Source of the DNA: Naegleria gruberi
Taxonomy: Eukaryota
Strand: one strand, 5' to 3'
Assembly: GCA_000004985.1 (NCBI GenBank)
Contig: GG738863.1
Length of the DNA stretch: 64,000 nt
Shown here: positions 5,765 to 59,935 of the stretch, piece by piece
Layout: every line of letters starts with the position of its first letter
Position numbering within the stretch: the stretch's first letter is position 1
The notes under the pieces: model-generated
The model's database searches: none
The model's input: only the letters and a program-made list of their open reading frames with translations
What the model was told of the DNA's origin: nothing
Translations under genes and position numbers: made by a program

Positions 5765-7111
5765 TTGTGTTTGCTGTACAGTATGATAACAACACCAATT
5801 TCTCCTGCACACATTTTGAAGGGTTCTCCCTCACCAACATCATCAACATCAGGAACGGGTGGAAAGAAAACCTCTCGACCTCCTAAAGGATCAAAACAAT
5901 TATCATCTCCTATTTCCAATCAATCTTCCTCCACCACTTCATCAATACCACCAATGACGCCCAATGATCAACTCCCACAGCAACACGTACCTTCTTTTAA
6001 AGGTCCTGTGATACCTCCTCCAACACATTTTCCTTACTTTCCAATGAATCCAATGGCTATGCCTAATGTTCCCATGATGTATGCTCCAATTAATACGATG
6101 CACATGATTCCTACCACCACACCAATGTTTGGCATGTTTCCACAGCCTGTAATGCCAAATATTCCTCCTCCAACAACTCCCCATAATACTTCTTTTCATA
6201 AGGTTCCGACTCCAATTCAACCAAAGCCTAGTACAAGCCCTCCATCATCAACCCAATCCACCATCACCACCACACAGTCTTCTAAAACAAAACCAAAGAA
6301 GAAAAAGAGACCACCAACAAGTAATAGGAATGTGAACACTGCTGATAATAGTAATAATACATCACCAGTAGTTATTTCTAGTAATATATCGAAAACGGCC
6401 GAAACAACAAGCAATCAAAAAAGAAAAGAACCTCCAACAACTAGTCGTTCAGTTCATCAGCATATAATTTCATATTTGTGGGAATTGGGACTCAGGGATA
6501 GTGCTAAAATTTTGGAAAATGACCTCAATAATCCTCTTTTGTTGAATGCTTCAGAAGATCGTGTAAGCTCTTTTGTGAATAATTTGAGTAATGAAGTTGA
6601 GCGTCACTCACACACAATACCCCCTTCCAATAAGAAAATTTCCACCAACGAAAAATCTTCCAGTAGTAATTTTACAACAACCGATGAAACATCAATAATT
6701 AATTCAAACGAAAATGATAGTTTTATGAGTGAATCAAATAATTCAACAATGGACAAGTACAACTCTGAAAATTATCTCAACATTCTCAAACAAACCACCA
6801 AATCTGAGAGCTACAACAAACCAACTGCTGAGTATGTCAATGAAAGATTGGAAAACTTGGAACAAACACTAGGCGTAAAGGAACAAAAAGTGCAAGTATT
6901 TGCCAGAATGAAAGAAGTGGAAGAAAGAATGCTCAAATTGGATGTTAACAATAATGAGATAGCACAACAGCAACCGTTACTTGGCAGTTCTGGTACTGCT
7001 GCTAATGATAATGTGCATGATGACAACTTCTTTGATAGCTTTTTTGAAGATGACACAGATAACCACCAAATGTCTGAATCACATTTTCAATTAGATAATA
7101 CAGACTGTTAA
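5765..7111 (+). CDS. low-complexity Pro/Ser/Thr/Asn-rich protein with a LisH-like motif
   Basis: 448-aa ORF. The compositionally biased N half (PPTTP, poly-S/T) matches the codon usage of neighbouring genes. HQHIISYLWELGLRDSAKILENDLN resembles a LisH dimerisation motif. The annotated start is probably the second ATG (MITTPISP). Confidence 0.5.
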   Translation: MCLLYSMITTPISPAHILKGSPSPTSSTSGTGGKKTSRPPKGSKQLSSPISNQSSSTTSSIPPMTPNDQLPQQHVPSFKGPVIPPPTHFPYFPMNPMAMPNVPMMYAPINTMHMIPTTTPMFGMFPQPVMPNIPPPTTPHNTSFHKVPTPIQPKPSTSPPSSTQSTITTTQSSKTKPKKKKRPPTSNRNVNTADNSNNTSPVVISSNISKTAETTSNQKRKEPPTTSRSVHQHIISYLWELGLRDSAKILENDLNNPLLLNASEDRVSSFVNNLSNEVERHSHTIPPSNKKISTNEKSSSSNFTTTDETSIINSNENDSFMSESNNSTMDKYNSENYLNILKQTTKSESYNKPTAEYVNERLENLEQTLGVKEQKVQVFARMKEVEERMLKLDVNNNEIAQQQPLLGSSGTAANDNVHDDNFFDSFFEDDTDNHQMSESHFQLDNTDC

Positions 7112-32696: not shown

Positions 32697-34909
32697 CTAT
32701 TTGAGATTGATTAATTTTTTGAGAAGTCTTGGTGATTTAACCTTTGTGGATGATTGATTCAATTCCTCGTCAAAATCAAAGGTTGTTTCCTTTGTAGGTG
32801 AAAGCATATCTTGGCCATCAATGATGGTATCAAAAACACATTCCAACAAATCTCGAGCAGCTGAGCCATTTGTAGCACTGGTCACTCTGACATCCCTCCA
32901 CAATTGTGCTCGTCTGTCCTCATCTTTGGCCAAATCAATAAATTGTTTCTGAACAAATTTCATCGAATCTCTATATACATATCCACCAATTTCGTAGAAA
33001 AATCTCCATTTTCTCTTTCGAAATTCCCTCTCTTCTGATGAACAAAAAGAGTATGTACTCTGGAGGAAGGACTGATTGGTTGGATCATCATCGCTACTGC
33101 TATCACTGAAAATTGCAGAAGTATTGAGTGGATCGCCAATAGTTATCGAAATTGGTTTCTCTCTTGTTGATATTGTAGAGCTGCCAGTATTGAAAATATT
33201 ACTACCAATTGAAATGGCCTTACTTGACATTGGTGATCTTTCTGTAGATGTGGTGGTAATTGATGAGATGGATGTACAACTATTGAGTGAAGGTAGGAGA
33301 GATTTGGAAGAAGAAAGTGGACTCGTATCTTCACTCTTACCTGTTATCCCTGGCTCAAATAAATGATATCGTTCCTTATATAAGAGATCAACTTGTTCTT
33401 CATCTATGTCTTTCATCAAACTGTAACACAAAGATCTCCAAACAGTGTCACACGTTGCCACAATATACATTTCATAATTTACAGTACTCAGAACACATAA
33501 ATCATGTGCATCCAAGTAAAAGCAAATGTAAATTAAAATATCACTCGGTAACTTTTGCCAATTTTCCTGTCTAATCTTGAATTCCTCTTCCTCTGTGAGC
33601 ATGTGATGATTTTCAACAACAAATCTCGAAGGTGACATTTTAGGAATAAATGATCCAACATTTAACCCATTTTTCTTTTGTTTTTGAATACTGGCACTCC
33701 TTGCTCTTTGAAATCGTTCCATAGTTTTTGAATTTTGTGCACTTTCGAATGTACCAGGTATTCTCTTTCTCTTTTGTTGAATGGTATGTCTCCTCTTGGC
33801 ATCTCCTGCCATTTTGTGAAAGTTTTTAATTGGTTTGTGAAGACGAATGTGTTTTGGTAAATCATCAAATGCTTCACTAATGTCAAAATATTGAATTTTG
33901 TGAAGAAAAACATCCTTCTTGTTGAACACTAGAAATATTGGTACATTCTCAAAACATGATGCATTGACAATTTCCTCAAATAAGAGCAAACTTTCCTTCA
34001 TTCTATTCGATCGATCATCTTCGTAACAAACTTGATTATATTCTGAAAGTGAGACGATGAAAATTATTCCACTTGTTGCTCCAAATAAGTGAACCCACTT
34101 TTTACGTTCATTCCTCTGGCCACCTATTATGATAAATAAATATTTAATATTAGTTCAAAGCTTATTTCAATACATATATTCTTTAAAAAAACCTACCTGT
34201 ATCAAAAACTCTAATTCTATTATTTCTATAAATGCACTCTGTTTCAACAATACCAGTTGTTTTCACATATGATGACATGACATGCTTTGTTTTTGGCATT
34301 GAATATATATGATCCATCTGTTTCACCAAGTCAGGTAAACAATTTTTGCATTCTCGTTATGAAATGTTCATCAACAATCCTCAGAATATGAATAAAATCC
34401 TCACAATCCAATCTAAGAACACTATTTGCAAATTCCTCATTCTCAATCTTGTTTAATTTCTCATCTGGAAACATACTCGAAAGTGCTCTCAGTACAAACT
34501 GTACCATTTGCACGATATTCGAAAGGATTACTTCACGATAAGATAAATATTCATCATTATCAAATCCTCCATTGAATAGTAATTTAACATTCTTGAAAAG
34601 CGTACTCTTCCTATAAGTTCCAATAAAAACAATTTCCAATATCATTATTCGAATTATATTGATCACCATTCATAAATCAAACATAGTACATCTTGTTAGA
34701 AACATGCCTAAATTTCAACAAACTACTCACCCAACACCTCCTGTCCCCAACATGATCACTCGTTGTTGTGGTAAATTTAAAACATTTGATCCGCCATTCG
34801 AATCTCCCAATCCTTTCAATAATTTAGAAGATGAAGACTTTTTAGAAAGCATGGAACGTGATGATGATTTTCTCAGCGAAGATGATGACGAAGATGTACT
34901 CTGACCCAT
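32697..34909 (-). CDS. G-protein alpha subunit-like protein fused to a C-terminal F-box domain (multi-exon)
   Basis: Exon 1 (34909-34721) encodes MGQSTSSS...QQRVIMLGTGGV and ends at a GTGAGT donor. A 110-nt intron (34720-34611) rejoins to give the P-loop GTGGVG|KSTLFKNVKLLF, which is the canonical GxGxxGKST. Helical-domain exon(s) follow, then ...PKTKHVMSSYVKTTGIVE...RVFDT|GGQRNERKKWVHLFGATSGIIFIVSLSEY (switch II DxGGQRxERKKW) and ...FLVFNKKDVF (NKxD). The ORF then continues for about 300 aa without the TCATDT/alpha5 C-terminus. It contains LPSDILIYICFYLDAHDLCVLSTVNYEMYIVATCDTVWRSL (F-box) and a Ser/Thr-rich tail. The junction around 34310-34335 may hide a tiny intron or a frame error. Confidence 0.65.
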
Positions 34910-38931: not shown

Positions 38932-41900
38932 TTATTCATAAACTTCTGCAAATTCAGTTGCACTTCTACCAAATATTTCAGGGCTATACATTTCCTCAGC
39001 TTTTACACCTGGAATAACAAATGAGCCAATAGATGTAGCTCTGGCAAGGTAGGTAAACTCATGAGTACCTTCCCATAATAATGAACTGAATGCTTCCACT
39101 CTTTCATCTCTAATATTATGATGCTCGTACCAGATTGGATTCCACCAACACCACCAACGTCTTGTTCCTCTATTATTATTGGATCCAGTTCCACTAACAC
39201 TAGCAATAGCTGGGGTTCCTTTCAATTCTGGATTGATTGGTTCGAGACCAGCTGGTAAAAAGTCAACTAGAGCAACATGATATCTACGACTAGTATTTGT
39301 CATTCTCAACTTGATACGAACCAATTCTCCTGCCTTAAATCTCCAACTATTCTTTTCCTTATCAAATGTAACATGAGAAGGATTAGTGACGTGCTCATAA
39401 CTTCTTTGAACTTCGAAACCGTAATCCAAAGCGTCAACAAGTAAATTCTTTGGAGCATAATCCATACCAATTCTATAGTATAATCTTCCTTCCCTTGNAA
39501 TGTTTGTTCTCCACAATAATCTTCTCCAAGCCATGCGTTAACAACAAAATCTGGGGTAACTCCTTCAAAGACATTAAAGTAGGTATTGAGAGCAAGGAGA
39601 ATGAAAACGTTTTCCTGAGTATTACCCCATCTTCCCTTCTTCTTGTGAGCCAACAATCCCTTAACAATTTTTGGAATGAGGTGTGATTTTGGAGAGATAT
39701 TGATGAATGCTTCCAAACAAATACCGTCGGTTCTTCTATCACTGTGCAACATGATATGCTTGGTGGCCATTACATCTCCATAACTGGTGATAAAGTTTGC
39801 TGTTTGAGCAGTTTCATTAGCATTCTTATCCAAGTGTGTCATAATTTCTGAAACTGTGCTTGTTTCTTTCTTACCACTTGCAAGATAAATAGCAGTAGCT
39901 ATCCATGCAAGATATTCCATATTTCCTTGGAGTTTCTTTTCCTTATAGAGAGTTTCAGCTAATGACTTGGCATCAGATTCACCCAACAAGGCCAAAACAT
40001 AGTAAGCATAAGCTTTGATGGATCTCAAAGATTCTGGAGAATAATCAGTACAGTATCTTTCAATAGTTTTGAGGACTGGAATGAGTTTGGACATCATTGG
40101 TGCATTCAATGTGTAACCAGCAATTTTACAACGAGCCATGGCGTGACCAACATGGCAAGTAACGTAAGGAGACACCTCATAATAGCTAGAGTAGGACCAA
40201 TAGCCAAAACCACCATTAGGGAATTGTCTTGAAGCCAATGTAGAGAAATATCCATTGATTTTAGTGTCAATAGCATCTTTGGTTGGTATCTCTGGAACTT
40301 GGAAGGCATACAAAATATCCTTGAGGGCAACAATTGACAATATTCTACTAGAAATTTGTTCACAACATTCAAATGGATAGTTATACAAATAGAGGAAAGT
40401 GTCAGTGAGTGATGACAAGGCAGTAGAAGAAGTTGTAATCTTGAGACCACCAAATTGTGGGAAAACATTTTGAGGAGCCTTTACAGGTTGGAAAACTGAA
40501 GAATCTCCATCCATTTCACCATAAGTTGCAAATGCCTCAGTAGTAGCTGGTGTGAAAACTCTAATCTCCTTTTCTACAGCATCGGCAAAATTAATGCCAG
40601 GTGTAGCAATGGAAACACCAACTTGGAATCTGGCAATACCAACACGATCTGTTGACATTGGGAATCTCAATTCGGCTCTTCCCATAGCAGGTACTTTGAC
40701 CCTCAAACCCTTCTTTGAAGAATCCAAAAGAGCCAAGTTTGTGAAGTTAATAGCAGCATTGACAACAACATCAATTGGGACTTGACTTTGTAAAACACAT
40801 GTAAATTCAGCTCTGTCACCAAAGTTAAGGAATCTTGGAAGGGATGGTCTGATTGCCAATGGAAGTTGAGCCACCATAGATGATTCATGAATTCCAAAAC
40901 ATGAATCTCCTTTGATTGCAACAGCTGTAATTCTATACTTGGTCAAATTGTCAGGAAGTTTGAATGAAACAGTTGCTTTACCATGGACATCAGTTACGCT
41001 CTTTGGACTGAAAACTGCAAGAGGATTAAAGTTAGATCTGACAGAAATTGCTGAATCTTCTGGTTGGTCTTCCTCGCCCTGGGAAGATGCATCTTTACAT
41101 TTACCACCTCTAGCACAGCATTTACGACAGCACTTACAACATTCCCTGTCACAACAGCCAGAACAAGAAGCACTAGCACAACAAAGCAGTTCTGGTTGAT
41201 CTCCTTCGAATACAACTGAATCATAACTCTTTACAAAAAGGTAGCTTCTCAATGAGTATGGATTAAGAACTGGATAATTTCTACGAGTAAATGTATTAAG
41301 AGGATTAGAAATAGAATATCCTGTCAAGGAGAGAACAGCTTCATCAACTGCCACAATGCAGACTTCAGAATTTTGAATTGGTTCACCAGTGATTGGATCC
41401 TTAACAAGTACATCAATGAAACTTTCTGCTCCTGGAGTTAAATATTCCTTCTCAGGTTTGGTCTCAACAGTTAAGGTTCTAGTGATGTTGGAAACAGAAA
41501 TTTCACATTGACCAGAAGCATATGCAGGCTGTTTTGGCAAATTAGTAAGAACGGTACCCACTGCATCAACTCTTGATTGACTTCCTGCAACTTCAACACT
41601 AACATAAATATTAGGAATGCAATTTTTGGTAATGTCAATCTCAATTTCAGTACAACCGTCTTCTGGATCAATAGTTATTGGAATATGTTTGATCACATCG
41701 TCAAGTGATACAAGTGCAACACCTTCACATTTTCCATCAAGGTTAGATTGAATAAGAAGTTTAGCCTTATCACCAACTTGATATTCAGTCTTGTCTTTAA
41801 TGATGAGAAGGGTGTCCTTAGAAATTCTCTTGCCAACCTTTTCATCTCTTGTGGAACCACCTGTAATATACAAGTTAGTTCTTGATGAATTTGTAAGCCC

Positions 41901-44900
41901 AGTTTCAGGATCAACAATTTCGACTTTGAATGAATAACTGCCACCTTTTTCAAATTTAACAGGTACTTCAACTGGTCCGTCTTTAGATGAGGTCAAAATT
42001 TGTTCAAAAACTTGCACGGTTTCATCTACAAACCTGAATCCCTTCTTTACACTAACAGATGTGGTAGCTGTCAATTTCATTTGAATACCAGAGACTAAAT
42101 TACCATCGACATCAGATGTAACAAGGGATGCAGTTACAGGAATATTAGGTTTAACAAATTGTTTGCTAAATTTGATACCACAATAATACTTGCAAGGATG
42201 GACAAGGAATGAAGTACTCGAAGAGATTGTTTGTCTGTTAATATCTTGAACAGTAGATTCTATTGAGATAGTTACTGGTACCTTGTTAGGTCTTGCAGAC
42301 TCTGTAAAAGAAATAGCAATTTGATGTTCTCCGTTACCGTCTGTGGTACCTTCAAATGTGGTACTTCCTAAAACAGAGCCAGTACTACTACCGAATCTTC
42401 TCATTCTATAAAATCCCATGTATGGATCATTACCTTCTCCAAAAGTATAGGCGTGTTGGTTAGGAGGAGTATATGATGCAGACGTTTGCTTGATGGTATA
42501 ATTGCATTTTCCACCACAAATACCTCCACCAGAGTAGTATTCAGCCTTGGTAGTGCATACAGCAGAATTTCCATTCACAATATAATTACCAGCAGGAACG
42601 GAAGATGATGATTTGAATTCTGGAGTTCTGAATTCTTGTACCTTGAAGGAATGTGAGGTTGAGAAAGCAGTGAATGTAATGATATGATCTCCCAAGTTAG
42701 CATTATCAGGAACCTTAAAAGTAAAATCAAAGGTTCCAAGTTTTGAAATTTCAATATCTCCCTCACAATATTTTTGACCTCTGGCATCATGGACTGTATA
42801 GTGTGTTGTTTGTTCAGAAGGAAGAACGACAATAGGTCCAGAGTCTTGCAATTTGAACTTTCTGACGATACCCTTGATGGAAACAGTTTCATTAGGCTTG
42901 TACAATCCTCTATCGTTGTAAATATGAGCAACGGTATCTGTACTAAATTTTGAAGTGTATAGTCCAACATCTGGAATGAAACAAGAATCATTACCATGCT
43001 TGGCAATCAATTTGGAAGTACCTGCATGAACCTTATATTTTCCAATACCAGTCTCAGCGTCAGGAGTAACATGTGCATTTACCTTGATGAATTCCACATC
43101 TTTCTTAATAATACTACCATCGCTCAATGAGTTAATCCAGAAATATAAATGAGATGAATGAGAATCATATGAACAATCAAGGGCGATCTTTGTAGATTGT
43201 ATCCATGCACAGTATGTTGGACGATAGTCCCAATTTCCTTTCCAACTAGTTTTAGTTGGCTCAACAAAAACCATCAAGTGACCCAGATTTTCATTAGGGA
43301 ATTGAAGATATTGTGAGAGGTCTACCTGTGTTTCACATGGTTCATCTTTCTCTCCACTGATTGTCAAGGTAGTGTCTAAAACCATTTTTCCTGGGAATTT
43401 GTAACTATTGTTATAGGCACTATAGTTAAGAGTTTCACCAGAATAGATTTGAGGTTCTACTTGACAAACTTTAAATTGTACAGAGTCCATATTTACAGTA
43501 ACAAAAGAATAGGTTGGTTTGGTGTTCAAGGTTGGATCGAGTACCATTACACCAGTACCAAAAGCTTGTAAACTTTGACGAGCACTTCCAACTTGAAATT
43601 CAACAACTGTATCAGGAAGAGTTTGTCCCCAAACATCTACAATACCCTTAAGGAAAAACTTATAGGTTGTTCTACCCTTTGATTTGCCTCTGATTGTCAA
43701 ATAAGTTCCACTTGGATTCAATTCCATGTTTTCCAATAATGGTGAAACAGTAACCATAGACTCTAAAAGCTTATCAACATCAATAGAATTGGAGAAGATA
43801 ATAGTGAAAGGCTCCATTGGAGTTGAACCACCAGATGAACGATCTTTTCTAAATTCAGGATAAGTGTATACATGAATTACTGAATCTTTCAATGATGGAA
43901 GAGGGCCTTCTGTACCAACAACTCCCTTATTAATTGTAATATCAAAAGAAGCTCCAATAGAAACTGGATTATTTTGGAAATCAAAAGTAAACCACAAATG
44001 TCTAGATTCAGGAGCTGAAGAAAGTTTGGAAAGATAAGAGTTATACATGGATGAATGTTTCTTTTTCAAATTATAATCTTCCATCATTTTCTTAACTTGA
44101 TCTTGAAGGAGTGAATTTGAGGATTTTCCATCGAAAATCAAACTAGCCTTACGACCTGGAGTGGAAATAAATGGTAATACAGCACTTGGGTCAATCTCTT
44201 GATCAAACTCGGCATAAAATACAGGGAATTCATTAACTGGCATTGAGTGGCTATTTGGCAAATACTCTTTAACATAAAGTCTTGGTGTTTCGAATGTAAA
44301 AGAAAAATCTGATTTCAATGTGCCCCCATTTTGTGAGCTAGTTCCTTTCTTGACAGTAACTGTATACTTTGTAGACATGTCAAATCTATAGTTGGCTTCA
44401 TAGACTAATGTTTTGGAACCCAACCACTTGAATTTACCTCCCTTTTTTGGGAGTGGTGAAACAATAACAGGAACTGTCTCACTTTCAACACTATCAATGC
44501 TGGATACAGCAACCATTGGTTGAGAGAAGGTAATTGTAATGGATGGAACAGATCTATCTAATTCTCCTTCTGGTGAATATCTCAAAATGGTCAAATCAGA
44601 ACCTGAAAGCTGGGCTTCTTCTTCCTTCAATTCTTGTGGTTTCTCCAATTTAACTTGAGGTGGAAATTCAACTTGAATAGAGTCAGCTGTCACTGGTGCC
44701 TTTAAAGATTTTTCTCTACATTTACAAATATCATTTCAATCACAAAATCCATCAATTGTAAAACTACTTACCTCATGAAGAAATCTTTTTGATCAGTGTC
44801 ATCACTCTTAATTGCTGGTAATCTATTCAATAATCTGTTAGTTTCCTCCTCTGATAACTCCTCAATGGAGCATAATTTTGCTCCCGATTCTTCTTCTGAT

Positions 44901-45320: not shown

Positions 45321-47543
45321 TTAAGATTTGGACAGGAAAGTGTTCACCAGTTGACCATTTAATTGTGAACTGGAGAGGTTTGGTTCGAATAATTGTCTTG
45401 TTGAGGGATGGAGCATCTTGAAGGTTTCTTCACTAATATGCAATTGATTCATTCTACCATTTGCCTCAATAGAATTACACAGAGAAACTCCCTCACCAAA
45501 CAAATCAAAACTTTGCTTGAACTTTCCAACAACTGCTGCTGTAATATTGGTAGAGGTGTGAATTCCAATTCGGACACCAATCTTGTTAGGATAGTTCCCT
45601 CCACCCAGAAATGCTCTCTTTTCATTGAATTTCTCAATGGATTTAATCATTTCAAAGCCACACTTAACACATTGCTCTGCATGTTTCGGTTCGTCATAGG
45701 ATGAGCTATGATAAAGACCACCAGCTAGGAAATAGCAATCTCCAATGGTTTTAATCTTTTCCAGCTTGTTGGAGGAGCATAAATCATCAAAGTTTTCGAA
45801 TATATCATGGAGCATCTTGATAACACTTGTTGGATTCATGTCACTAGTCAATTTGGTAAATCCAACAATGTCACAATAGAGCAATGTACAACATACAATA
45901 GAGTCAATAACTTTCAGACCCATTGAAAGTCTTTGTGCAATGTTTTTAGGGAAAATTCGATCCGTTATTCTGGTCAATTGTTCCTCTTTCGTTGCAACCA
46001 TTCCAGTATCTCTAATGAATCCAATAAAGTGAGATTTTTGACTTTTTGGATCAATTACTTCTGAAATTCTGGTTTCTATTGAGAGAATTCGTCCACATTT
46101 CCCTTCTGCTTTGAGGAACCTTACACTGTCAATTACTTTTTTCTGACCAGTTCTCATGTATCTCTCTAAATAGTAATCGTGCTTTCTTCTATCTGAAGAG
46201 TTGCAAAGCATTTTAATGTTTTTACCGAGAACTTCATATTTCTGATAGCCAAAAACATTCACAGCCGAATGATTAAAAACCTGAATGATTCCTTCCTGGG
46301 TAATAGCAATGATTGGAATGACTGAAAGTTCAGTAATTGAATCACAAATAGTCTTGTTTTTCATAAGTTTCTCATCTTCTTCACTTGTTTTACATTGTTG
46401 AATGTAGAGACAGTAATGAATCGTGCCAGTTTTTTTAACGGTGACAACTTTACCGTGACAAGGGAATGATTTCTTGAGTACGTTTGAATAGCATGTGAGT
46501 TTTAAATCTCTTACCAAAAGCTTTCGTCTTCTTCTCGATCGTTCCTCTTTCCTTGCAATTGAATATGGCAATCCATGAGAGGCACAATGAGTTTCTGTTA
46601 TATCCCAAGAATTCAATGAACCAGTAAATCTTTCAATTTCCATCTGAATGTCCATAATTGACTGCTCATCCACATACTTTGAAAGATTTTCGCCTAGAGC
46701 CACAAATGAATGAATTCCAAATAATTTCTCAGATTCTGGATTTAAATACTCGATTTCAAACTTCTCATTGAATATAATGATAGGAAATCCACACAACATC
46801 ATTTGATCTATGGCAGAATTCAACTCCTCAGATTCTTCCTGCATGAGTGGTGCGTCATTTTCAGTATATCCATTCATTACACTTCCATACACTTGCAAAT
46901 CACTCACCAAATCGAATGCATCATGTGTATAATCAATTGCTTGTTCAGACTCTGCTTCTGTCTCACCTTCACAATATTCTGATTCGATTGTTTGTCCAAA
47001 ATTAGCAAGACCGTTCAGTAAATTATTAGAGCTTTGCAATCCTTTGAGAAGCCTGGACGAAAGTCCCTTCTTGAATCCTGCAGCCCTTTTCAGTGTTTGC
47101 ATTCCTTGCTCTCTACTCTGAACAGAGAGAAAACTTGCTCCACTTCTAGCAGAAGATTGGGCACTTTCACAACCCATATCTGTAGAGTTTAAATCAAGAA
47201 AGAGTGAGTTTTTCAATTCACCTGGTTTAAGGCAAATGGAGGCACTTGCAACAGCCATAGTTGAGTATTGTCTTCCGAGTTGAGTAGGTGGTTTTAGGAC
47301 TTTTCTTTTAGGAAAAAGAAGTGGTTCCTCTACTCCATACGTACTTGTAGCATCTCCATTATATTCTGAAGTTTCGCATGAAGATACAGAAATTGCAGAA
47401 TCATCGTCATCATCATTAAGAGAAATTGAAAAGCCAGAAGGTTTCGTAATAATGGTTGGACGACTGTAGGAGAAAGTCTGATACTCCAAGTCACCAGAAA
47501 TTGATTCTTGCTCCTCAACAAGCATTCGTTTCTTCATGATCAA
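45321..47543 (-). CDS. PAS-PAS-class III nucleotidyl cyclase (adenylate/guanylate cyclase catalytic domain at the C-terminus)
   Basis: Single 740-aa ORF. An acidic Ser-rich N-terminus is followed by two PAS-like segments (CGFPIIIFNEKFEIEYLNPESEKLFG...; ICDSITELSVIPIIAITQEGIIQVFNHSAVNVFGYQKYEVLGKNIKML). The cyclase domain then reads CCTLLYCDIVGFTKL (metal Asp), KIKTIGDCYF, RIGIHTS...AAVVG, FDLFGEGVSLCNSIEANG. Confidence 0.85.
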   Translation of the reverse strand: MIMKKRMLVEEQESISGDLEYQTFSYSRPTIITKPSGFSISLNDDDDDSAISVSSCETSEYNGDATSTYGVEEPLLFPKRKVLKPPTQLGRQYSTMAVASASICLKPGELKNSLFLDLNSTDMGCESAQSSARSGASFLSVQSREQGMQTLKRAAGFKKGLSSRLLKGLQSSNNLLNGLANFGQTIESEYCEGETEAESEQAIDYTHDAFDLVSDLQVYGSVMNGYTENDAPLMQEESEELNSAIDQMMLCGFPIIIFNEKFEIEYLNPESEKLFGIHSFVALGENLSKYVDEQSIMDIQMEIERFTGSLNSWDITETHCASHGLPYSIARKEERSRRRRKLLVRDLKLTCYSNVLKKSFPCHGKVVTVKKTGTIHYCLYIQQCKTSEEDEKLMKNKTICDSITELSVIPIIAITQEGIIQVFNHSAVNVFGYQKYEVLGKNIKMLCNSSDRRKHDYYLERYMRTGQKKVIDSVRFLKAEGKCGRILSIETRISEVIDPKSQKSHFIGFIRDTGMVATKEEQLTRITDRIFPKNIAQRLSMGLKVIDSIVCCTLLYCDIVGFTKLTSDMNPTSVIKMLHDIFENFDDLCSSNKLEKIKTIGDCYFLAGGLYHSSSYDEPKHAEQCVKCGFEMIKSIEKFNEKRAFLGGGNYPNKIGVRIGIHTSTNITAAVVGKFKQSFDLFGEGVSLCNSIEANGRMNQLHISEETFKMLHPSTRQLFEPNLSSSQLNGQLVNTFLSKS

Positions 47544-51005: not shown

Positions 51006-52349
51006 TCATACCAAGACCCTCTCTTCACTAATTTGTACAGAATTCATTGAATGAACATCTGTTGCTGTATCAATATTGAGATAAATATTGGTATTAGTGT
51101 CAGAGGCACGAATGGTTCCATTATTTTCAACTCTTGAAATTTCAAATTGTGGAGGTGGTTCATTCATTGAAATTAAATGAAGTTTTTGAGTCTTTCCACC
51201 TTCAATTTCACAAGTTCCTAGAAATCGTATCGTACAAACTTCGTCCAATATTGAAGCTGTTGTTCCATCACAAATTATTCCACTCTCTAAATGATCGATA
51301 GCATAATAACAATGAGCAATAGATGAATTGATTAATTCCCCATACAATCCAAAATGTCTTCTAAAATCCGATCCAACACTAGCTCTGTAACCATAACCAC
51401 TTGCAAATCCAACACCATCGACCTCTAAATTCTCCCTATGAATTAGTTCTTTCAAACAGTGAATTACTAATGAAGGATTGGACTCTGCCATATGTCGTTC
51501 AAAGCTCAATATAAATTTTAGACTCTTTCTATCAAAGAACATATCAAGAACACAACAGTTATATTGCTCTGAAACAACTTGAATAGAATTGACAATATTA
51601 TTCTTTGTTGCNNNNNNNNNNNNNNNNNNNNNNNNNNNNNNNNNNNNNNNNNNNNNNNNNNAATTAATTATATTCATTAATTTAGCTGTAGACAGAGGAG
51701 TGTTTGTTCCGAAAGTTTGAAGAGGAGCCATTAATTGTTTCCTCTTTCTAATAGTTGCATTTACCTGCTTAATAATCCTTTTCTTTTGAATTTTTGAATT
51801 AGATTTGAACCATTTTGCATCCTTTACAGTGTCTTGCAGATCTTTCTTTTTAGCCATTAATTCCATAGTATCACTAGGAGAAGCATTTACTATTAATGAA
51901 TTTAATGGAATACATTTTGCTCCCAAAATTTTCAATTGATTCTTTTTGGAAGTAACCTTGTCAGCTTTACGTTTTAGAACTAGAACACTTCTTTGATTAT
52001 CATCATGAGCAATAATGGAATAGGTTTGATTTTTTCTACTTGCAATCAGTGTTTCGAATGGAACAGTTTCAATATGTTGTAATTCTTCCTTTCTGATTTT
52101 ATAATTTTTAACCTTTTTAATTTTGTCAATGCATAGGGCAACATATTTTCTCTTCAACCATTGAAATACTCTATTACAACAAAATCCTTGATGAATGTGT
52201 TTCTTTAATTCTTTGGATGCAAGATTTCTTCCTGTTTTATTCAATAAAAAAGCTCTGTACCAACGTTTCTTGTTGTGAGTTGTTTGACAGCAAACACAAA
52301 CAGTTCCTTTATCAATTAGTTGTGTTGATCGTGATGACAACTTACACAT
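51006..52349 (-). CDS. hypothetical protein (Cys-rich basic N-terminus; interrupted by an assembly gap)
   Basis: 447-aa ORF reading across the N-run 51612-51661. MCKLSSRSTQLIDKGTVCVCCQTTHNKKRWYRAF..., with ...GYGYRASVGSDFRRHFGLYGELINSSIAHCYYAIDHLESG at the C-terminus. Convergent with the EEP gene, with 6 bp between stops. No family assigned. Confidence 0.45.
   Translation of the reverse strand: MCKLSSRSTQLIDKGTVCVCCQTTHNKKRWYRAFLLNKTGRNLASKELKKHIHQGFCCNRVFQWLKRKYVALCIDKIKKVKNYKIRKEELQHIETVPFETLIASRKNQTYSIIAHDDNQRSVLVLKRKADKVTSKKNQLKILGAKCIPLNSLIVNASPSDTMELMAKKKDLQDTVKDAKWFKSNSKIQKKRIIKQVNATIRKRKQLMAPLQTFGTNTPLSTAKLMNIINXXXXXXXXXXXXXXXXXATKNNIVNSIQVVSEQYNCCVLDMFFDRKSLKFILSFERHMAESNPSLVIHCLKELIHRENLEVDGVGFASGYGYRASVGSDFRRHFGLYGELINSSIAHCYYAIDHLESGIICDGTTASILDEVCTIRFLGTCEIEGGKTQKLHLISMNEPPPQFEISRVENNGTIRASDTNTNIYLNIDTATDVHSMNSVQISEERVLV
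51612..51661. other. assembly gap (50 N)
   Basis: n run inside ORF 51006-52349. Confidence 0.99.
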
Positions 52350-53161: not shown

Positions 53162-53211
53162 NNNNNNNNNNNNNNNNNNNNNNNNNNNNNNNNNNNNNNN
53201 NNNNNNNNNNN
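53162..53211. other. assembly gap (50 N)
   Basis: n run separating the duplicated EEP fragment from the sAC-like paralogue. Confidence 0.99.
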
Positions 53212-54981: not shown

Positions 54982-57900
54982 CTACTGCTTAATTATCTTA
55001 TATCTTTCATTCAAAGATTGGATTGATTCGTGTTGTTCAATGTAATTTTCCATAAGATAATCCATATCTGAAATAATATCTGGAAGTTTGTCTTCTACAT
55101 ATTTCAGTCCTTTCGATATTAAATAATGATAGCAGTCGTACATGTCCAGAAGAATTCTCAACTTGACACCATGCGCTGATTGAGAAGAAACAAATTGCAG
55201 TGCATCAGAGTAGGATTTTTCAACATTAGGATAGCATTCTTCGAAAGATGCCTCAAGCAATGAGCACTTGATTAGAAGAAATCTGGATTGCAATCTCAGT
55301 ATTTCTCCTAATAAATTTTCTTGATGTGATGCTAGTGCATTCTTGAAGAGTGTCTCTGTATGTTCAAGATACGGAACATCAGTACCAATTTGGATACTAT
55401 CTAGGAATTCCAAATACTTGACCCGAGACTCTAAAATTGCATAATCGAATATTAAGCTTGGAGGTGCATAAATGTGAAGAGAGTTAAAGAGAGATTCCAT
55501 GTGATCAGCTTGTTCCCTTAACCGTTGCTCTTTCTCTACAATATTAATTCCAGACGTTAACTCTCTGCAAAATTGGACATAGGCAAGATAAAACTTGGCG
55601 CTTAATACTTGGGTTGGACTTGCCACAGTTGTTGAAAATATTGAAATGATGCTCATTCCTTGATTAGCTGATCTCTCTAGCTCATCCAATTGACCACTAA
55701 TTAATAAATAGTAGCAAGCAAATGAGTAAAAGAACATGTAAGAAGGGAGGTGAAGTCTGACCCTGCTCTGTTCAGATCCCAAAGTGTAGTATTTTGATGC
55801 ACTCTCATATTTACCAACAGACCACAAAGCCCGCATCGAGTAGGTACAAGATACAAGCAAAGCATCCCTTTTTCTGAACCTATTAATGGACTGTTGATGA
55901 TACTTGTCGGGATCGCTCAAATACTGATTGATAACATCTTCAGAGAAGAGAATTACCTTATTAAAATTACCCCTGGTGTTGTGAGTCATCATGCAAGATA
56001 CAGAACCAAACATTTGCTGTGTAGTATCTCCTATTTCTGTTGATAAATTAATGAGGTTTGAACTCAATACTATTGCTTCATCTGTCTTGTTCAAGTAAAA
56101 AGCCATGAACCATCTCTCAGATTCAATAGAAAAGATCAACTCTTTCTCTGATTCTGGGCAATACAGTTTTGCTTTGGTTAATGCTTCCTCACCAGTCGGC
56201 ATCAAATTTGCGTCAAACAAATTCTCAATAAATATTCCAAATTTGAGTAGACTCTTTGCAAGTAAGATTTTAACACTCAAAAAACTGAGACCCAAAATGG
56301 AAAAAGTTGAAGAAATTCGTGTTATCCCTTCAAATCTCTTTCTGGTAATATCAATCAGGGAGAGAACTGACTCGAAAACGTTCAGCTTTGTAACATCTAA
56401 TAGGTCGGTGTACTTGACTTCTTCATTTCCTTCCTTTTCTCCTTTCCACAATGTTACAATTTTCTCCAATATCGTATTAAATGAAACACAAAGATGCTTG
56501 AAAACAGAAGCTTCCTGCTCTTGGCTCAATAGAGTGATAGCTTTTGGAATTATAACACACGCCAATGCTAAATGAAGCATTTCCTCCTTTTCTACTGATC
56601 CTAGCGAGAGGGTTTCCTCTAAAGCAATCTTATCAAAATAGTGGCCTAAATGAACGGCGATTTCCTTAATATACCACGAGGATCGTTCTCTACTTTTGTG
56701 TCTTCTACATTGTTGCTCAATTGTCTTGATAAAGTGTTTGGCAAGAGACATGTGAAATTCTCTCTTTTGCTCTTTGGGAGTAGTGGAATACACAATCTGT
56801 AGCATCATGGAAGATTTGAATTTGAACGTTCTGTCCTTACTTGATGAACAAGCAAGAAAATGTTTACCCTTTGTCTCCTCAACCACTTCTAAAAACTGAT
56901 GACTGCCAACAAGATTCTTCAAAATATCTGATAATTTTCTGTCCTTTTTCACATTTGATTCCTTTGGGAATATTGCTTCAAGAGTCTCAAAATCGAATTG
57001 GATTCCAATCGAAGATGCAACTTTCAGAACAAGTTGAGAGTCAACATCCAATCTGTCAATCTTTTGTTGAAAGAACGAAGACATTGTGGCAGGCAATTCA
57101 ATCGTATCCATAGTCGTAAATTTAAACTTGAGGCAGCCATCTTCTACATAAGTTCTTCCATTTTCTTGTAAAAAGTGAAGGGCCATTGTTAAAAACTGTT
57201 GATTTCCCTCTGTTTTTTCGACGAAAATGTCTAAAACCTTTGGATCGACTTTTGAAGCATTAAAATAAAGCTTTAAGTATTCTTCACATTCAGACTTGGT
57301 GAACTCTTTAAGGTCGATTACTAAGTCAGCCTTAGCCTTCCACTCATCAAGCTCTTTTCTCTTCTCCGCCATTTGTGGTCCATCTGGAAGCTCGTTACAG
57401 GAAAGCAACAATACACAGTTGGTAATTCCTGGCTCAAGGTCCAAAATTTTTTTCGTAACAATCCTTGAATAGGGGTCAAACTGCATTGTAAAATGGAAAT
57501 CGTCATATAGTAGAAACCAAGGTTGTGCTGAATACCCCATATACATCCAAGAAATAGAAAGCAATCTAGCGAAAAGATCAGCAGCGATGGTAATTCTCTC
57601 CTCCTGATCCAGTTTAACACTATCTTTCGACTCTTTAAACTCGGTACCTACAACTGGGTTCAATAAGTATAAATTGTCACGATCTTTTTCTTCTTTGAAA
57701 GTTTCCAACATTATTTCTTCTCTTTGTTCTCTACTAATATTGTTGTAAAGATTTTCAACATCATTATAATCTAAATCCAATCCGTTCTTCTTATAAAAAC
57801 GTTCAGTAATGCTAATCTTCAGGTTTCCTAGATAGAGATAAAATGGAGTTTCGAACTCAATAGCTGAATTATAAACACAGGCAAGTTTTGATTTCAATTC

Positions 57901-59935
57901 GCTCACTAATCTTCTCAAAAGGTCAGATTTTCCAACACCATTTTCTCCTTTCACAAAAATTATCTTGGTCTTTGTTTTCTTACCCTGTTCTATTTCTTGC
58001 TGTTTTTCATTAACATATCCACAAATACTATCAAATATTTCCTCTCTTCCAATAGGATATTTGAGAGAATTCAAATGCTCAGAGCCACTGTAACTTTTCT
58101 TACCAGATGATTCAGAATGGTCTTCTGTCATAATTTGTGAAGGAGATTTCTTAATGTTATAATACATTTGAGTTGAAGAGATTGATGAGTCTTTGACCTT
58201 CCAAATTTTTATCAAATCTGATTTTCCCTTCACCTTGATTGGCTCTAGTGGTTCTATTGGAATACCCTTCAACATTTGAGCTGTCTCCTCTTCACATAAC
58301 ACAACTCCATCATTTTTTTCTGATTCCTTCATTAAACGGGCAGCCAAATTTACCTTATCACCATAAATAGTAAACTCCTTTCTATATTCTGACCCACTGA
58401 TACAGATTATTAAGGTTAAATAAATATAAACATACACATTTCCAATAAAACACTTTCCACTGGCAATTCCCAATCCAAACTTCATTCCTAGTTGAGATAA
58501 ATTGCCTGACAGTTCAATACCTGCCTTCACTGCTCTAATGGAATCACTGATATGACTAACAGGATAACCAAAAGAAAATACAAGAATAGTACCCTTTTCA
58601 TCCGACAACATGTTTGCAATAAAACCCTCATAAGTTTCCAATACGCCTTGAACGTTTGTTAAATATGTTTGATACACTTGCATTTCATCATCTTTTGTTT
58701 CGTACTTGTTTGTATCAATAATGGACAAGAACCCCACTGTGAGAGGTTTGACTTCATTGATCCATTCACTTTGTCCTGCATCTATCTTGTTTCTAACAGG
58801 TGGGCTAATAAATTTACGAAGTATTGGAATAAAGGTTGAGTTCACTGTTAGAATGGGTAATGATAGTCCAGTAATGGGCTCCCTTTTTGATGCCAGAGCT
58901 ACATACACATCTGCCTCTTTGATTTCTAACTTTCTACAAGTGATATAATTGGAACATTTTTCAAATGCTGGCCTGGTTATCACAACTTGTCCTACCAGAC
59001 TATTACCCAAAGCGGAGGACATTTCGAGAAGAGCTTGGCCAGAAGTGATTCGAAGCCAGTAATCATTCACTCCCAAATGGTGCGTCGTTACATATCCCAA
59101 AGACACACCACAATGTATCTGAAGTGATATGTTATCATTCACCTTGAAAGATTTCAAATATTCAGTCTGCTGAATTCGCAAGGCACATTGAACAGCCGCA
59201 ATTACACACTCAGCCAAAGTTCTATCCTTACGTGGGTAATGGAATTGACAAATAATAGCCTATAGATTTCATTCAATAAAAAAGTTCTTAAGCAACTTAC
59301 ATCTCCTGCAAATCGTTCGATATCTCCTCCAAACTTTGCATGTTAATACTTTGCGCAATTATCCTACTTACATCATAAATAAAGGCAATTAATGTCGTAA
59401 AATATTGATTAATATATTTAGTAAGAAGCTCAGCTCCATTAGGTTCTTTTGAAAGGCTCTCTGTTAAATTAGTAAATCCAGAAATGTCAATCATTAAAAT
59501 ACAGGTTTCATATGTTATATTACTAAGTGGAGACATTGTTGTTGACATTTCTTCCTCCAATGCCTTTGATTTCCTATCATTTACATTACTATTATTATTG
59601 CTCTTGTAATAGAGAGACTTGAGATTATACAACAAATGTTGAGGTAAATAAGAACAAATTATTTCCGCATTAACCTCCTCCGTTGTTTTTTTTCCATTTC
59701 CAAAAGGTATTGTTTTAAATCCCATCAAATTCACTCGGGGAGGAGGAAGTTTGAAAGAGTGTGCCTTACGAACCTCCACCACTTTCGTTTCTGACTCCGA
59801 GGAAGCATAAGAATCTTTTGATACTCTCCTTTCCGAATATCTAATTGATTTATGTTGATTAAAATCTTTTGGTGATTCTTGTTGATTAGGACTAACAACA
59901 TTCTCACTGCTGTTCAAGCTGCAAGCAGATCCCAT
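54982..59935 (-). CDS. soluble adenylyl cyclase (sAC/ADCY10)-like protein: two cyclase homology domains, P-loop NTPase region and C-terminal helical/TPR-like repeats (about 1620 aa, 4 or more exons)
   Basis: Exon 1 (59935-59372) encodes MGSACSLNSS...TYETCILMIDISGFTNL...LIAFIYD. A 38-nt intron (59334-59371) is followed by a 33-nt exon (59301-59333), FGGDIERFAGD. A 41-nt intron (59260-59300) leads into exon 3, AIICQFHYPRKDRTLAECVIAAVQCALRIQ.... Joined, IAFIYDFGGDIERFAGDAIICQF matches sAC KVLIFGGDILKFAGDALLALW. A second domain carries ...IGNV|GSEYRKEFTIYGDKVNLAARLM across an in-frame 39-nt intron (58397-58435). Further elements are FVKGENGVGKSDLLRRL (Walker A), hhhhDD (Walker B) and long helical repeats. 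Stop at 54982. Confidence 0.8.

What the first reader, a model, noticed from the sequence alone, without database searches (positions are those of the whole stretch)
45321..47543. PAS-PAS-cyclase with substitutions at transition-state residues
This is a 740-aa single-exon protein with two PAS-like sensor segments and a C-terminal class III cyclase domain. The metal-binding aspartates are present (CDIVGFT, KTIGDCYF). In the distal motif the usual G-D-T-V-N-x-A-S-R-M-E reads G-E-G-V-S-L-C-N-S-I-E. The Asn and Arg that stabilise the transition state therefore appear to be replaced. That would make it either a regulatory pseudo-cyclase partner for the neighbouring sAC-like enzymes or a cyclase with unusual chemistry. 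It has no counterpart I recognise among the well-described Dictyostelium cyclases (ACA/ACG/ACB, GCA, SGC).
Basis: partly seen in the sequence, partly recalled or inferred. Interest (0 to 1): 0.5.

Follow-up and report, generated by a model that had tools for sequence, protein, structure and literature searches.

The report
Heme-PAS cyclase subunit lacking Asn/Arg
This Naegleria gruberi gene (not Dictyostelium) encodes a probable heme-based gas sensor fused to a "half" adenylate/guanylate cyclase domain that keeps the metal-binding residues but lacks the two transition-state residues, so it most likely makes cyclic nucleotide only when paired with a second cyclase chain that has not been identified.

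Summary
An intact single-exon gene lies on the minus strand (CDS 45321..47537, 738 aa). It is 100% identical to a Naegleria gruberi "predicted protein", so the window is not Dictyostelium.

Layout: disordered N-terminus, divergent PAS-A, PAS-B, cyclase transducer helix, class III cyclase domain. Numbering follows the 740-aa ORF.
- **Kept:** both metal aspartates (D558, D602) and the adenine-type Lys/Asp (K598, D680).
- **Replaced:** Ser687 and Ser691 align without gaps to the transition-state Asn and Arg.

This is a family trait. All 16 relatives found lack Asn/Arg (5 N. gruberi paralogues, N. fowleri, N. lovaniensis, Willaertia, environmental). Fifteen keep both aspartates. 235 background cyclase domains are canonical.

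The domain resembles tmAC C1 and sGC alpha far more than C2 or beta. It has the residue pattern of chytrid NeoR, which is inactive alone and donates its aspartates to a partner.

Best reading: a heme/gas-regulated C1-type subunit that needs an Asn/Arg-bearing partner. No partner was found. The neighbouring sAC-like gene has its own C1 and C2, so it is an unlikely partner. A pseudo-cyclase remains a serious rival.

The parts
45321..47537 (-). Complete single-exon CDS (738 aa plus TAA stop). Identical to the N. gruberi predicted protein P0001.
46809..47537 (-). N-terminal region of about 243 aa. It is low-complexity, Ser/Asp-rich and poorly conserved.
   Evidence: It is not alignable among relatives and has no Pfam hit.
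46386..46799 (-). PAS-A (ORF aa 249-386). A divergent PAS fold with a helical insertion that carries the basic stretch KEERSRRRRKLL. No heme-type His was detected.
   Evidence: Pfam PAS_4 at aa 253-307, E 6e-5. Partial PAS HMM hits at aa 249-290 and 359-384. The model shows strands plus helices.
45987..46355 (-). PAS-B (ORF aa 397-519). FixL-type heme-PAS.
   Evidence: RmFixL heme domain 1d06 E 5e-16, BjFixL 1dp6 E 2e-13, EcDosP/DOS about 1e-7. 36% identical to RmFixL and 32% to BjFixL. Foldseek hits to FixL 8js5 and DosP.
46179..46181 (-). His455 codon. Aligns with the proximal heme ligand His200 of BjFixL.
   Evidence: alignment. His is present in 16/16 family members.
46161..46163 (-). Arg461 codon. 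Aligns with BjFixL Arg206 (heme-propionate / FG-loop switch).
46119..46121 (-). Arg475 codon. Aligns with BjFixL Arg220, the residue that contacts bound O2.
45909..45986 (-). Linker / cyclase-transducer-element helix EEQLTRITDRIFPKNIAQRLSMGLKV.
   Evidence: It matches the conserved LLxNILPxxIAxRLKxG segment that precedes canonical cyclase domains. It is helical in the model.
45396..45899 (-). Class III cyclase homology domain (ORF aa 549-716), C1/alpha-like.
   Evidence: Pfam PF00211 E 2e-39. AC9 C1 scores 87 bits against 43 bits for C2, and sGC alpha 84 bits against 37 bits for beta. Foldseek hit to 1azs_A (AC5 C1) with TM 0.86 and rmsd 2.0.
45870..45872 (-). Asp558 codon (CDIVGFT). First metal-binding aspartate.
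45738..45740 (-). Asp602 codon (KTIGDCYF). Second metal-binding aspartate. Lys598 (45750-45752) lies at the adenine-Lys position.
45465..45509 (-). Degenerate distal motif FDLFGEGVSLCNSIE. Asp680 is at the adenine-Asp position, Ser687 (45483-45485) at the Asn position and Ser691 (45471-45473) at the Arg position.
   Evidence: Gap-free register against AC9 C1 and C2. Family-wide loss of the motif.

Best explanation
The gene encodes a soluble sensor-cyclase subunit of the amoeboflagellate Naegleria gruberi.

Shown:
- The architecture is disordered N-terminus, PAS-A, FixL-type PAS-B, transducer helix, class III cyclase domain.
- The cyclase domain keeps everything a C1-type (tmAC C1, sGC alpha, chytrid NeoR) half contributes to an active site. 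This means the two metal-binding Asp and the GFT phosphate loop.
- It lacks the NxxxR transition-state pair that the opposite half must contribute.
- This pattern is fixed in a family of at least 16 genes in Naegleria, Willaertia and related environmental eukaryotes.

Inferred:
- PAS-B binds heme b through His455. It responds to O2 (or NO/CO) through the FixL-like Arg461/Arg475 switch.
- The signal travels down a dimeric helix (the transducer element) to the catalytic dimer.
- The protein is catalytically poor or dead as a homodimer, or with its own paralogues, because both sites would lack Asn/Arg.
- It makes cAMP (or cGMP) only as a heterodimer with a cyclase chain that still has NxxxR and base-recognition residues. 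One of Naegleria's many canonical PAS-cyclases could serve.
- Such a heterodimer would have one active site (Asp from this chain, Asn/Arg from the partner) and one degenerate, possibly regulatory, nucleotide site. Experiments showed this arrangement for NeoR/RGC1.
For: Identity and organism.

Domains.

Catalytic register.

Family-wide pattern:
- 16/16 members lack Asn and Arg.
- 15/16 keep both Asp, and one has Glu at the first Asp position.
- 235 background domains are canonical DKDDNR.

Purifying selection on the degenerate domain:
- The core orthogroup P0300/P0302/P0181/P0003 is 64-92% identical between N. gruberi, N. fowleri, N. lovaniensis and Willaertia, yet still lacks NxxxR.

C1/alpha-likeness:
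- AC9 C1 87 bits against C2 43 bits.
- sGC alpha 84 bits against beta 37 bits.
- The best Foldseek hits are sGC alpha chains and AC5 C1.

Heme-PAS:
- FixL E 5e-16 and DosP about 1e-7, with His200/Arg206/Arg220 equivalents in register.
- These residues are conserved in the family.

Precedent:
- NeoR lacks NxxxR (T455/K459), keeps the metal Asp and is inactive alone.
- It supplies the Asp to the single active site formed with RGC1/2.
- tmAC and sAC likewise lack the motif in one half (PMC12264004).

A canonical partner type exists in the genus: N. fowleri P0045 is a PAS-cyclase with DKDDNR.
Against: - No partner was identified.
- Every member of the family, including four other N. gruberi paralogues, lacks NxxxR. 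The complement is therefore not a close paralogue.
- No second canonical cyclase domain is encoded in the window.
- None lies within 10 kb of the relatives in Willaertia, N. lovaniensis or N. fowleri. Chytrid neor/rgc genes, by contrast, are clustered.
- The full N. gruberi proteome could not be scanned with these tools.
- Heme binding is inferred from sequence only.
- Naegleria is reported to depend on prey for heme (PMC9928731).
- The window copy is the most divergent family member, at most 47% identical to any other. It has also lost 8 residues of the beta7-beta8 hairpin, so it may be under relaxed constraint.
Confidence: 0.5

Rival explanations
1. It is a homodimeric pseudo-cyclase. The dimer still binds metal-ATP, since the Asp pair, Lys598 and Asp680 are all present, but it does not turn the nucleotide over. 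It would act as a heme/gas-gated nucleotide-binding switch or scaffold. It could also act as a dominant-negative that titrates canonical cyclases.
For: - All 16 family members lack NxxxR, so no pairing within the family gives a complete site.
- No partner was found and no linkage is conserved.
- The base-recognition Lys and Asp are kept in 15/16 and 16/16 members.
- In NeoR/RGC1 the degenerate site appears to bind nucleotide and regulate allosterically.
Against: - Mammalian C1 domains also keep these Lys/Asp positions, so their conservation is not diagnostic (alignments).
- Strict retention of both catalytic metal Asp and the GFT loop across genera is most simply explained by catalysis.
- No precedent is known to me for a free-standing homodimeric class III pseudo-cyclase with a sensor domain.
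Confidence: 0.25
2. It is a homodimeric cyclase that works without the canonical Asn/Arg, either at low basal rate or with other residues taking over. Heme ligation would set the rate.
For: - Metal, phosphate-loop and base-recognition residues are all present in one chain.
- From general knowledge, Asn/Arg mutants of mammalian AC keep a few percent of kcat, and some mycobacterial cyclases tolerate non-canonical residues.
Against: - The residues at the two positions are not conserved within the family (E/S/A/T/L/Y/I and L/S/I/M/E). No conserved substitute is apparent there.
- The whole WGDTVNxASRME motif is degenerate, with W to F, D variable and S to Q.
- NeoR, which shows the same loss, is inactive alone. 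Restoring N and R did not rescue it.
Confidence: 0.15
3. One reading: it is a regulatory partner of the neighbouring sAC-like enzyme.
For: A sAC-like gene (cyclase plus STAND ATPase) lies 7.4 kb away on the same strand.
Against: - The sAC-like protein has its own C1 with the metal Asp motif MIDISGFT.
- It also has its own C2 with VNLAARLM, so it needs no external half.
- Relatives in three other species have no cyclase neighbour.
- Two unrelated genes (NBR1-like and an Exo_endo_phos phosphatase-family gene) and further uncharacterised ORFs lie between them.
Confidence: 0.03
4. This particular copy is a decaying, functionless duplicate of the conserved family member P0300.
For: - It has the longest branch and is at most 47% identical to any relative.
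- No syntenic orthologue was found in N. lovaniensis or N. fowleri.
- It has an extra deletion in beta7-beta8.
Against: - The reading frame is intact over 738 codons in a 35% GC genome.
- His455, Arg461, Arg475, Asp558, Asp602, the GFT loop and the transducer helix are all retained.
Confidence: 0.05

Closest known systems
C1 catalytic domain of mammalian membrane adenylyl cyclases (AC9, AC5, AC8)
   Same: Best sequence match (87 bits to AC9 C1 against 43 to C2) and a close structural match (1azs_A, TM 0.86). It has both metal Asp. It lacks Asn/Arg at the NxxxR positions, with a hydrophobic or small residue at the Arg position, as in C1 (AC9 C1 reads ...VNLANLME).
   Different: C1 is covalently tied to its C2 partner within one 12-TM polypeptide. 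Here the half-domain is a separate soluble chain behind PAS sensors, and its partner is unknown.
Soluble guanylate cyclase alpha subunit
   Same: Top Foldseek hits for the whole model (8hbe_A and others). It is a separate polypeptide with sensor, PAS, helix and cyclase domain that supplies the metal Asp while the beta chain supplies Asn/Arg. The holoenzyme is heme-regulated.
   Different: There is no H-NOX domain. Heme would sit in a FixL-type PAS on the Asp-donating chain, whereas in sGC it sits in the beta H-NOX domain. The base-recognition residues are Lys/Asp (adenine type), not Glu/Cys. It is not an orthologue.
Neorhodopsin (NeoR) of chytrid heterodimeric rhodopsin-guanylyl cyclases
   Same: A microbial-eukaryote sensor-cyclase that lost NxxxR (T455/K459) but keeps the metal Asp. 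It is inactive alone and donates its Asp to the one active site formed with canonical RGC1/2. The second site is regulatory (PMC12264004).
   Different: The sensor is a rhodopsin and the protein is membrane-bound. The partner genes are clustered with neor. Here there is no clustering and no partner is known.
FixL / DosP (EcDOS) heme-PAS oxygen sensors
   Same: PAS-B is 32-36% identical to FixL heme domains. It has the proximal His and the two Arg of the FG-loop switch in register. It follows a tandem PAS-A/PAS-B layout as in FixL (8js5).
   Different: The output is a class III cyclase domain rather than a histidine kinase or c-di-GMP phosphodiesterase. The host is a eukaryote. Heme binding is untested.
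Canonical heme-PAS cyclases of other protists and bacteria (Percolomonas P0278, diatom Conticribra cluster P0175, Diphylleia P0249, Phalansterium P0306)
   Same: They share the FixL-type PAS (His conserved) fused to a class III cyclase domain.
   Different: These keep the full D-K-D-D-N-R set, so they can work as homodimers. The Naegleria/Willaertia family has lost NxxxR.
HemAC-Lm, the globin-coupled O2-sensing adenylate cyclase of Leishmania (from my own knowledge, not checked here)
   Same: A heme-based gas sensor coupled to cAMP synthesis in a protist from Discoba.
   Different: It has a globin sensor rather than PAS. As far as I recall its catalytic domain is canonical.

Membership tests
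Class III nucleotidyl cyclase homology domain (PF00211) | Sequence and fold match to the cyclase homology domain | tested here: met
   Pfam E 2e-39 against a cut-off of 21.9 bits. PDB hits to AC9, AC5 and sGC. Foldseek TM 0.8-0.86 to isolated cyclase domains.
Class III nucleotidyl cyclase homology domain (PF00211) | Two metal-binding aspartates | tested here: met
   D558 and D602 are in register.
Catalytically self-sufficient (homodimeric) class III cyclase | Transition-state Asn and Arg (NxxxR) in the same chain as the metal Asp | tested here: not met
   Ser687 and Ser691 occupy these positions. The pair is absent in 16/16 family members, while 235 background domains have N and R.
Catalytically self-sufficient (homodimeric) class III cyclase | Base-recognition pair (Lys/Asp for ATP, Glu/Cys for GTP) | tested here: met
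   K598 and D680, the adenine type. C1 domains also keep these, so the result is not diagnostic.
C1 / alpha / NeoR-type half-domain of heterodimeric cyclases | Keeps the metal Asp, lacks NxxxR, and is closer to C1/alpha than to C2/beta | tested here: met
   AC9 C1 87 bits against C2 43 bits. sGC alpha 84 bits against beta 37 bits. Residue pattern.
C1 / alpha / NeoR-type half-domain of heterodimeric cyclases | A complementary partner chain exists that supplies NxxxR, and the heterodimer is active | tested here: inconclusive
   None in the window. None within 10 kb of three relatives. None inside the family. Canonical PAS-cyclases exist in the genus (P0045). The full proteome could not be scanned, and activity cannot be tested with these tools.
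FixL-type heme-PAS (PAS cluster with FixL and DosP) | PAS fold with significant similarity to FixL/DosP heme domains | tested here: met
   1d06 E 5e-16, 1dp6 E 2e-13, DosP about 1e-7. 36% identical to RmFixL.
FixL-type heme-PAS (PAS cluster with FixL and DosP) | [quoted passage not shown] | tested here: met
   His455 aligns with BjFixL His200. It is present in 16/16 family members.
FixL-type heme-PAS (PAS cluster with FixL and DosP) | FG-loop arginines (BjFixL Arg206, Arg220) that couple O2 binding to signalling | tested here: met
   Arg461 and Arg475 are in register. They are conserved in most family members.
FixL-type heme-PAS (PAS cluster with FixL and DosP) | Actual heme b binding and gas-dependent switching | not testable with these tools
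   This needs purified protein and spectroscopy.
Soluble guanylate cyclase alpha subunit (orthology) | N-terminal H-NOX domain and Glu/Cys-type partner chemistry | tested here: not met
   There is no H-NOX/HNOBA Pfam hit. The architecture is PAS-PAS-cyclase. The base-recognition residues are Lys/Asp. It is a functional analogue only.
Partner of the adjacent sAC-like (ADCY10-like) enzyme | The sAC-like protein lacks one catalytic half and so needs an external one | tested here: not met
   The sAC-like gene has C1 (MIDISGFT) and C2 (YGDKVNLAARLM, aligned to human sAC 266-432).

The most novel reading that the evidence does not exclude
The whole Naegleria/Willaertia family has no complementary partner. 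It would then be a new functional class: heme-PAS-gated homodimeric 'cyclase' domains that bind metal-nucleotide but do not cyclise it by the canonical mechanism. They could act as O2/NO-dependent ATP/GTP-binding switches or dominant-negative regulators of the large Naegleria cyclase repertoire. Alternatively, they could catalyse with a non-canonical transition-state arrangement.
Probability: 0.25. Interest if true: 0.65.

Novelty: new variant of a known kind. Interest (0 to 1): 0.45.

Why it matters
**Physiological context.** From general knowledge of the genome paper, Naegleria has roughly a hundred nucleotidyl cyclases and moves between oxic water and anoxic sediment. How it senses oxygen is unknown.

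**What the family offers.** A conserved family joins a FixL-type heme-PAS to a cyclase half-site. It includes three genes in the human pathogen N. fowleri. This gives a concrete, testable candidate for an O2/NO-to-cyclic-nucleotide pathway in a deep-branching eukaryote.

**Evolutionary interest.** It would be a soluble counterpart of sGC alpha and NeoR that apparently arose independently. The Percolomonas relative P0278 and the diatom, Diphylleia and Phalansterium relatives keep the canonical NxxxR motif. The Naegleria/Willaertia family would thus be another case of a homodimeric sensor-cyclase evolving into an obligate asymmetric enzyme.

**Limits.** No paper found in the held library describes heme-PAS cyclases in Naegleria. 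The gene itself is already in public databases as an unannotated 'predicted protein'. The cyclase-domain pattern (Asp kept, NxxxR lost) is a well-known one.

Tried and rejected
1. **Word-index search with the cyclase domain alone.** It returned only short, mostly bacterial proteins. It did not even return the query's own protein, so it was useless for finding paralogues. A search with aa 240-740 and the exhaustive HMMER search worked.
2. **Exhaustive search saturated by giant proteins.** Its top 150 was filled with giant multi-PAS proteins, which limited how deep I could see into cyclase paralogues.
3. **Partner search by gene neighbourhood.**
   - The window contains no second canonical cyclase domain in any frame.
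   - The Willaertia, N. lovaniensis and N. fowleri loci show no cyclase neighbour and no synteny with the window.
   - The N. gruberi paralogues P0300, P0176, P0180 and P0179 are not in the contig index.
   - The ENA contig L001 holds two family members in tandem, both without NxxxR.
4. **sAC-like neighbour as partner.** Rejected, because it has its own C1 and C2.
5. **Compensating residue at the Asn/Arg positions.** Rejected, because these columns are variable in the family.
6. **Literature.** No paper was found on Naegleria heme-PAS cyclases or on their catalytic residues. PMC2447327 is held without the relevant text.
Full report
**Numbering.** Residues are numbered on the 740-aa ORF listed by the tool. 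Subtract 2 for the 738-aa NCBI model P0001.

**1. What is at the coordinates**

An uninterrupted ORF runs on the minus strand from 47543 to 45321. The first codons are TTG-ATC-ATG. The real start is the ATG at 47537 and the stop is TAA at 45321-45323.

The 738-aa product is 100% identical over its full length to a 'predicted protein' of Naegleria gruberi on a 468-kb scaffold. The window is 31-38% GC. Its other genes are:
- a bacterial-type alpha-2-macroglobulin gene;
- an NBR1-like gene;
- a DEAH helicase gene;
- a seryl-tRNA synthetase gene;
- an LRR gene;
- a sAC-like gene.

**2. Domains**

| Region (aa) | Assignment | Evidence |
|---|---|---|
| 549-716 | Guanylate_cyc, E 2e-39 | |
| 403-512 | PAS, E 6e-18 | |
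| 253-307 | weak PAS_4, E 6e-5 | |

An AlphaFold2 model of aa 240-740, built on 33 aligned sequences, has mean pLDDT 81. It shows two PAS-like sheets. The first carries a helical insertion. A helix (aa about 520-545) and an alpha/beta cyclase fold follow.

Foldseek against the PDB ranks sGC alpha chains first. DosP, the FixL PAS-A/PAS-B dimer and tmAC catalytic domains come next, including AC5 C1 (1azs_A) at TM 0.86 and rmsd 2.0 Å.

The helix EEQLTRITDRIFPKNIAQRLSMG matches the conserved segment (LLxNILPxxIAxRLKxG) that precedes canonical cyclase domains in my alignments. From general knowledge, this is the 'cyclase transducer element' of class IIIa/b enzymes.

**3. Catalytic residues**

HMMER aligns the query to both halves of human AC9. 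The distal motif aligns without gaps:

| Source | Sequence |
|---|---|
| Query | FDLFGEGVSLCNSIE |
| AC9 C1 | FDVWSNDVNLANLME |
| AC9 C2 | YDIWGDTVNIASRMD |

This gives the following assignments:

| Role | Residue |
|---|---|
| Metal Asp | D558, D602 |
| Adenine Lys | K598 |
| Adenine Asp | D680 |
| Asn position | Ser687 |
| Arg position | Ser691 |

The domain scores 87 bits against AC9 C1 but 43 against C2. It scores 84 bits against sGC alpha but 37 against beta. C1 and alpha are the halves that donate the metal Asp and naturally lack NxxxR.

**4. The pattern is a family trait**

The searches were an exhaustive HMMER search of 1.84 billion representatives and a word-index search. Source names came from cluster look-ups. 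Together they gave a family of 16 proteins:
- five from N. gruberi (window, P0300, P0176, P0180, P0179);
- three from N. fowleri (P0002, P0173, P0302);
- three from N. lovaniensis (P0299, P0181, P0183);
- one from Willaertia magna (P0003);
- four environmental (P0004, P0301, P0232, P0212).

I made one phmmer alignment of every cyclase domain collected. In it, 235 domains read D-K-D-D-N-R at the six positions. All 16 family members lack both N and R. Fifteen keep both Asp, and one has Glu at the first position.

The whole WGDTVNxASRME motif is degenerate in the family:

| Canonical residue | In the family |
|---|---|
| W | F |
| D | variable |
| N | E in 9/16, otherwise S/A/T/L/Y/I |
| S | Q |
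| R | L in 10/16, otherwise S/I/M/E |

Because the substitutes vary, an alternative conserved catalytic residue at these positions is unlikely.

The core orthogroup (P0300, P0302, P0181, P0003) is 64-92% identical across three Naegleria species and Willaertia. The degenerate domain is therefore under strong constraint and is not decaying.

The window gene is the most divergent member, at most 47% identical to any other. It has no syntenic orthologue in N. lovaniensis or N. fowleri. It also lacks 8 residues in the beta7-beta8 hairpin that its relatives keep.

**5. The sensor**

Alone, it hits:
- the Rhizobium meliloti FixL heme domain (E 5e-16);
- Bradyrhizobium FixL (E 2e-13);
- E. coli DosP/DOS (about 1e-7).

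It is 36% identical to RmFixL and 32% to BjFixL.

In register with BjFixL ...RSRH(200)DSYISR(206)Y...IGIGR(220)..., the query reads ...RRKH(455)DYYLER(461)Y...IDSVR(475).... The proximal heme ligand and both FG-loop arginines are therefore present. His is found in 16/16 family members and the arginines in most.

PAS-A has no such signature.

Heme binding remains an inference. A pangenome paper notes that Naegleria obtains heme from prey (PMC9928731). Heme availability rather than gas could therefore, speculatively, be the signal.

**6. Relatives with a canonical domain**

FixL-type PAS fused to a fully canonical D-K-D-D-N-R cyclase occurs in:
- the heterolobosean Percolomonas (P0278);
- the diatom Conticribra weissflogii, in a cluster of P0175 with seven tandem heme-type PAS;
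- Diphylleia;
- Phalansterium;
- metagenomic, probably bacterial, proteins.

The likely history is a canonical homodimeric heme-PAS cyclase that lost NxxxR in the Naegleria/Willaertia lineage. Ordinary Naegleria PAS-cyclases such as N. fowleri P0045 are canonical and have a non-FixL PAS.

**7. Mechanism**

From established knowledge of class III cyclases, each active site is built across the dimer interface. One chain gives the two Asp and the other gives the base-recognition pair and NxxxR.

A homodimer of this protein, or any dimer within the family, would have two sites lacking NxxxR.

The best experimental precedent is chytrid NeoR (PMC12264004):
- It lacks NxxxR (T455/K459) and keeps its Asp.
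- It is inactive alone.
- With canonical RGC1/2 it forms a heterodimer with one active site, to which NeoR contributes the Asp.
- The second site appears regulatory.
- The same paper notes that tmAC and sAC lack the motif in one half.

I therefore favour a heme/gas-regulated, Asp-donating subunit that needs an NxxxR-bearing partner (confidence about 0.5). The partner need not be C2-like. Any canonical Naegleria cyclase with a compatible helix would do.

**8. What argues against it**

I found no partner:
- none in the window;
- none next to relatives in three species;
- none within the family.

An environmental contig carries two family members in tandem, both degenerate. The N. gruberi proteome could not be scanned here.

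A homodimeric pseudo-cyclase that binds but does not turn over nucleotide (0.25) and a weak non-canonical homodimeric cyclase (0.15) therefore remain open.

**9. The sAC-like neighbour**

The gene at 54982..59935 (minus strand) matches human sAC C2 (residues 266-432), including YGDKVNLAARLM. STAND-ATPase hits follow. Its upstream exon ORF carries the C1 motif MIDISGFT.

It is a self-contained C1-C2 enzyme. It is separated from the PAS-cyclase gene by an NBR1-like gene, a phosphatase-family gene and further uncharacterised ORFs. The proposed partnership is unsupported.

**10. Verdict**

- **Observation:** confirmed.
- **Interpretation:** partly supported. A partner-dependent or pseudo-cyclase role is reasonable. 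The sAC partner, the unusual chemistry and the Dictyostelium framing are not supported.
- **New findings here:** the correct organism, the FixL-type heme-PAS, and the family-wide, selection-maintained loss of NxxxR.
- **Novelty:** a new variant of known kinds (sGC alpha / NeoR-like half-cyclase, FixL-like sensor).
- **Interest:** moderate.

Noticed in passing
window 54982..59935 (-): A sAC-like (ADCY10-like) gene. The exon ORF 59297..59935 carries the C1 motif MIDISGFT. The ORF 54982..59217 carries the rest of C1, a C2 with YGDKVNLAARLM, and weak AAA_16/NACHT (STAND ATPase) hits. The stretch 'GNVYVYIYLTLIICISG' has no counterpart in human sAC and looks like a short unspliced in-frame intron.
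   Followed up: partly
proteins P0128-P0167 (not in the window): The closest relatives of PAS-B by total score are giant proteins of 1.2-5.5 thousand aa with at least 13 tandem FixL-type PAS domains. Almost every domain keeps the heme-ligating His and the Arg220 equivalent. No output domain was detected in the four scanned (P0128, P0131, P0156, P0168); P0128 also has a TPR_TmcB hit near its N-terminus. Named sources are the kinetoplastid Bodo saltans (CUG33156.1, annotated as 'methyl-accepting chemotaxis protein') and the diplonemid Namystynia karyoxenos. These are possible multi-heme proteins of Euglenozoa.
   Followed up: partly
proteins P0175 cluster, P0278, P0249, P0306: FixL-type PAS fused to fully canonical class III cyclase domains occurs in a diatom (Conticribra weissflogii, seven tandem heme-type PAS), Percolomonas, Diphylleia and Phalansterium. 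Heme-PAS cyclases seem widespread in protists, and I found no description of them in the papers searched.
   Followed up: partly
window 38932..44693 (-): A large bacterial-type alpha-2-macroglobulin gene (Big_5, MG2, A2M_BRD, A2M and bacterial MG10 domains) sits immediately downstream of the PAS-cyclase gene. A single N at 39498 splits the reading frame. The bacterial domain set suggests lateral acquisition.
   Followed up: no
L001 (ENA contig ERZ26692762, 8073 bp), genes 536-2710 and 3428-6056: Two family members in tandem, with signatures DKDD-EE and DKDD-IE and 2-3 heme-type PAS each, lie next to RasGEF genes on a contig from an unidentified eukaryote. The 307-aa PAS-only call and the 560-aa call are probably one gene.
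   Followed up: partly
window 46386..46799 (-), ORF aa about 330-345: The helical insertion in PAS-A carries a strongly basic stretch, KEERSRRRRKLL. Relatives conserve it as EERxKRKxKL. It could be a nuclear-localisation or calmodulin-binding motif.
   Followed up: no
bacterial hits (8 plus 3 sequences): A group of short bacterial cyclase-domain proteins reads D-Y-D-D-L-K (or D-H-D-D-L/V-K, D-Y-D-D-M-K) at the six catalytic positions. Lys is replaced by Tyr/His, Asn by Leu and Arg by Lys. This is another recurrent non-canonical signature.
   Followed up: no
window 32697..34001 (-): One ORF combines a C-terminal fragment of a G-protein alpha subunit (aa 1-92, profile positions 232-320) with an F-box (aa 148-193). 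This is either an exon read-through artefact of the mechanical ORF call or an unusual fusion.
   Followed up: no
window 11238-11287, 51612-51661, 53162-53211: Three 50-base runs of N (assembly gaps). None affects the gene studied.
   Followed up: yes
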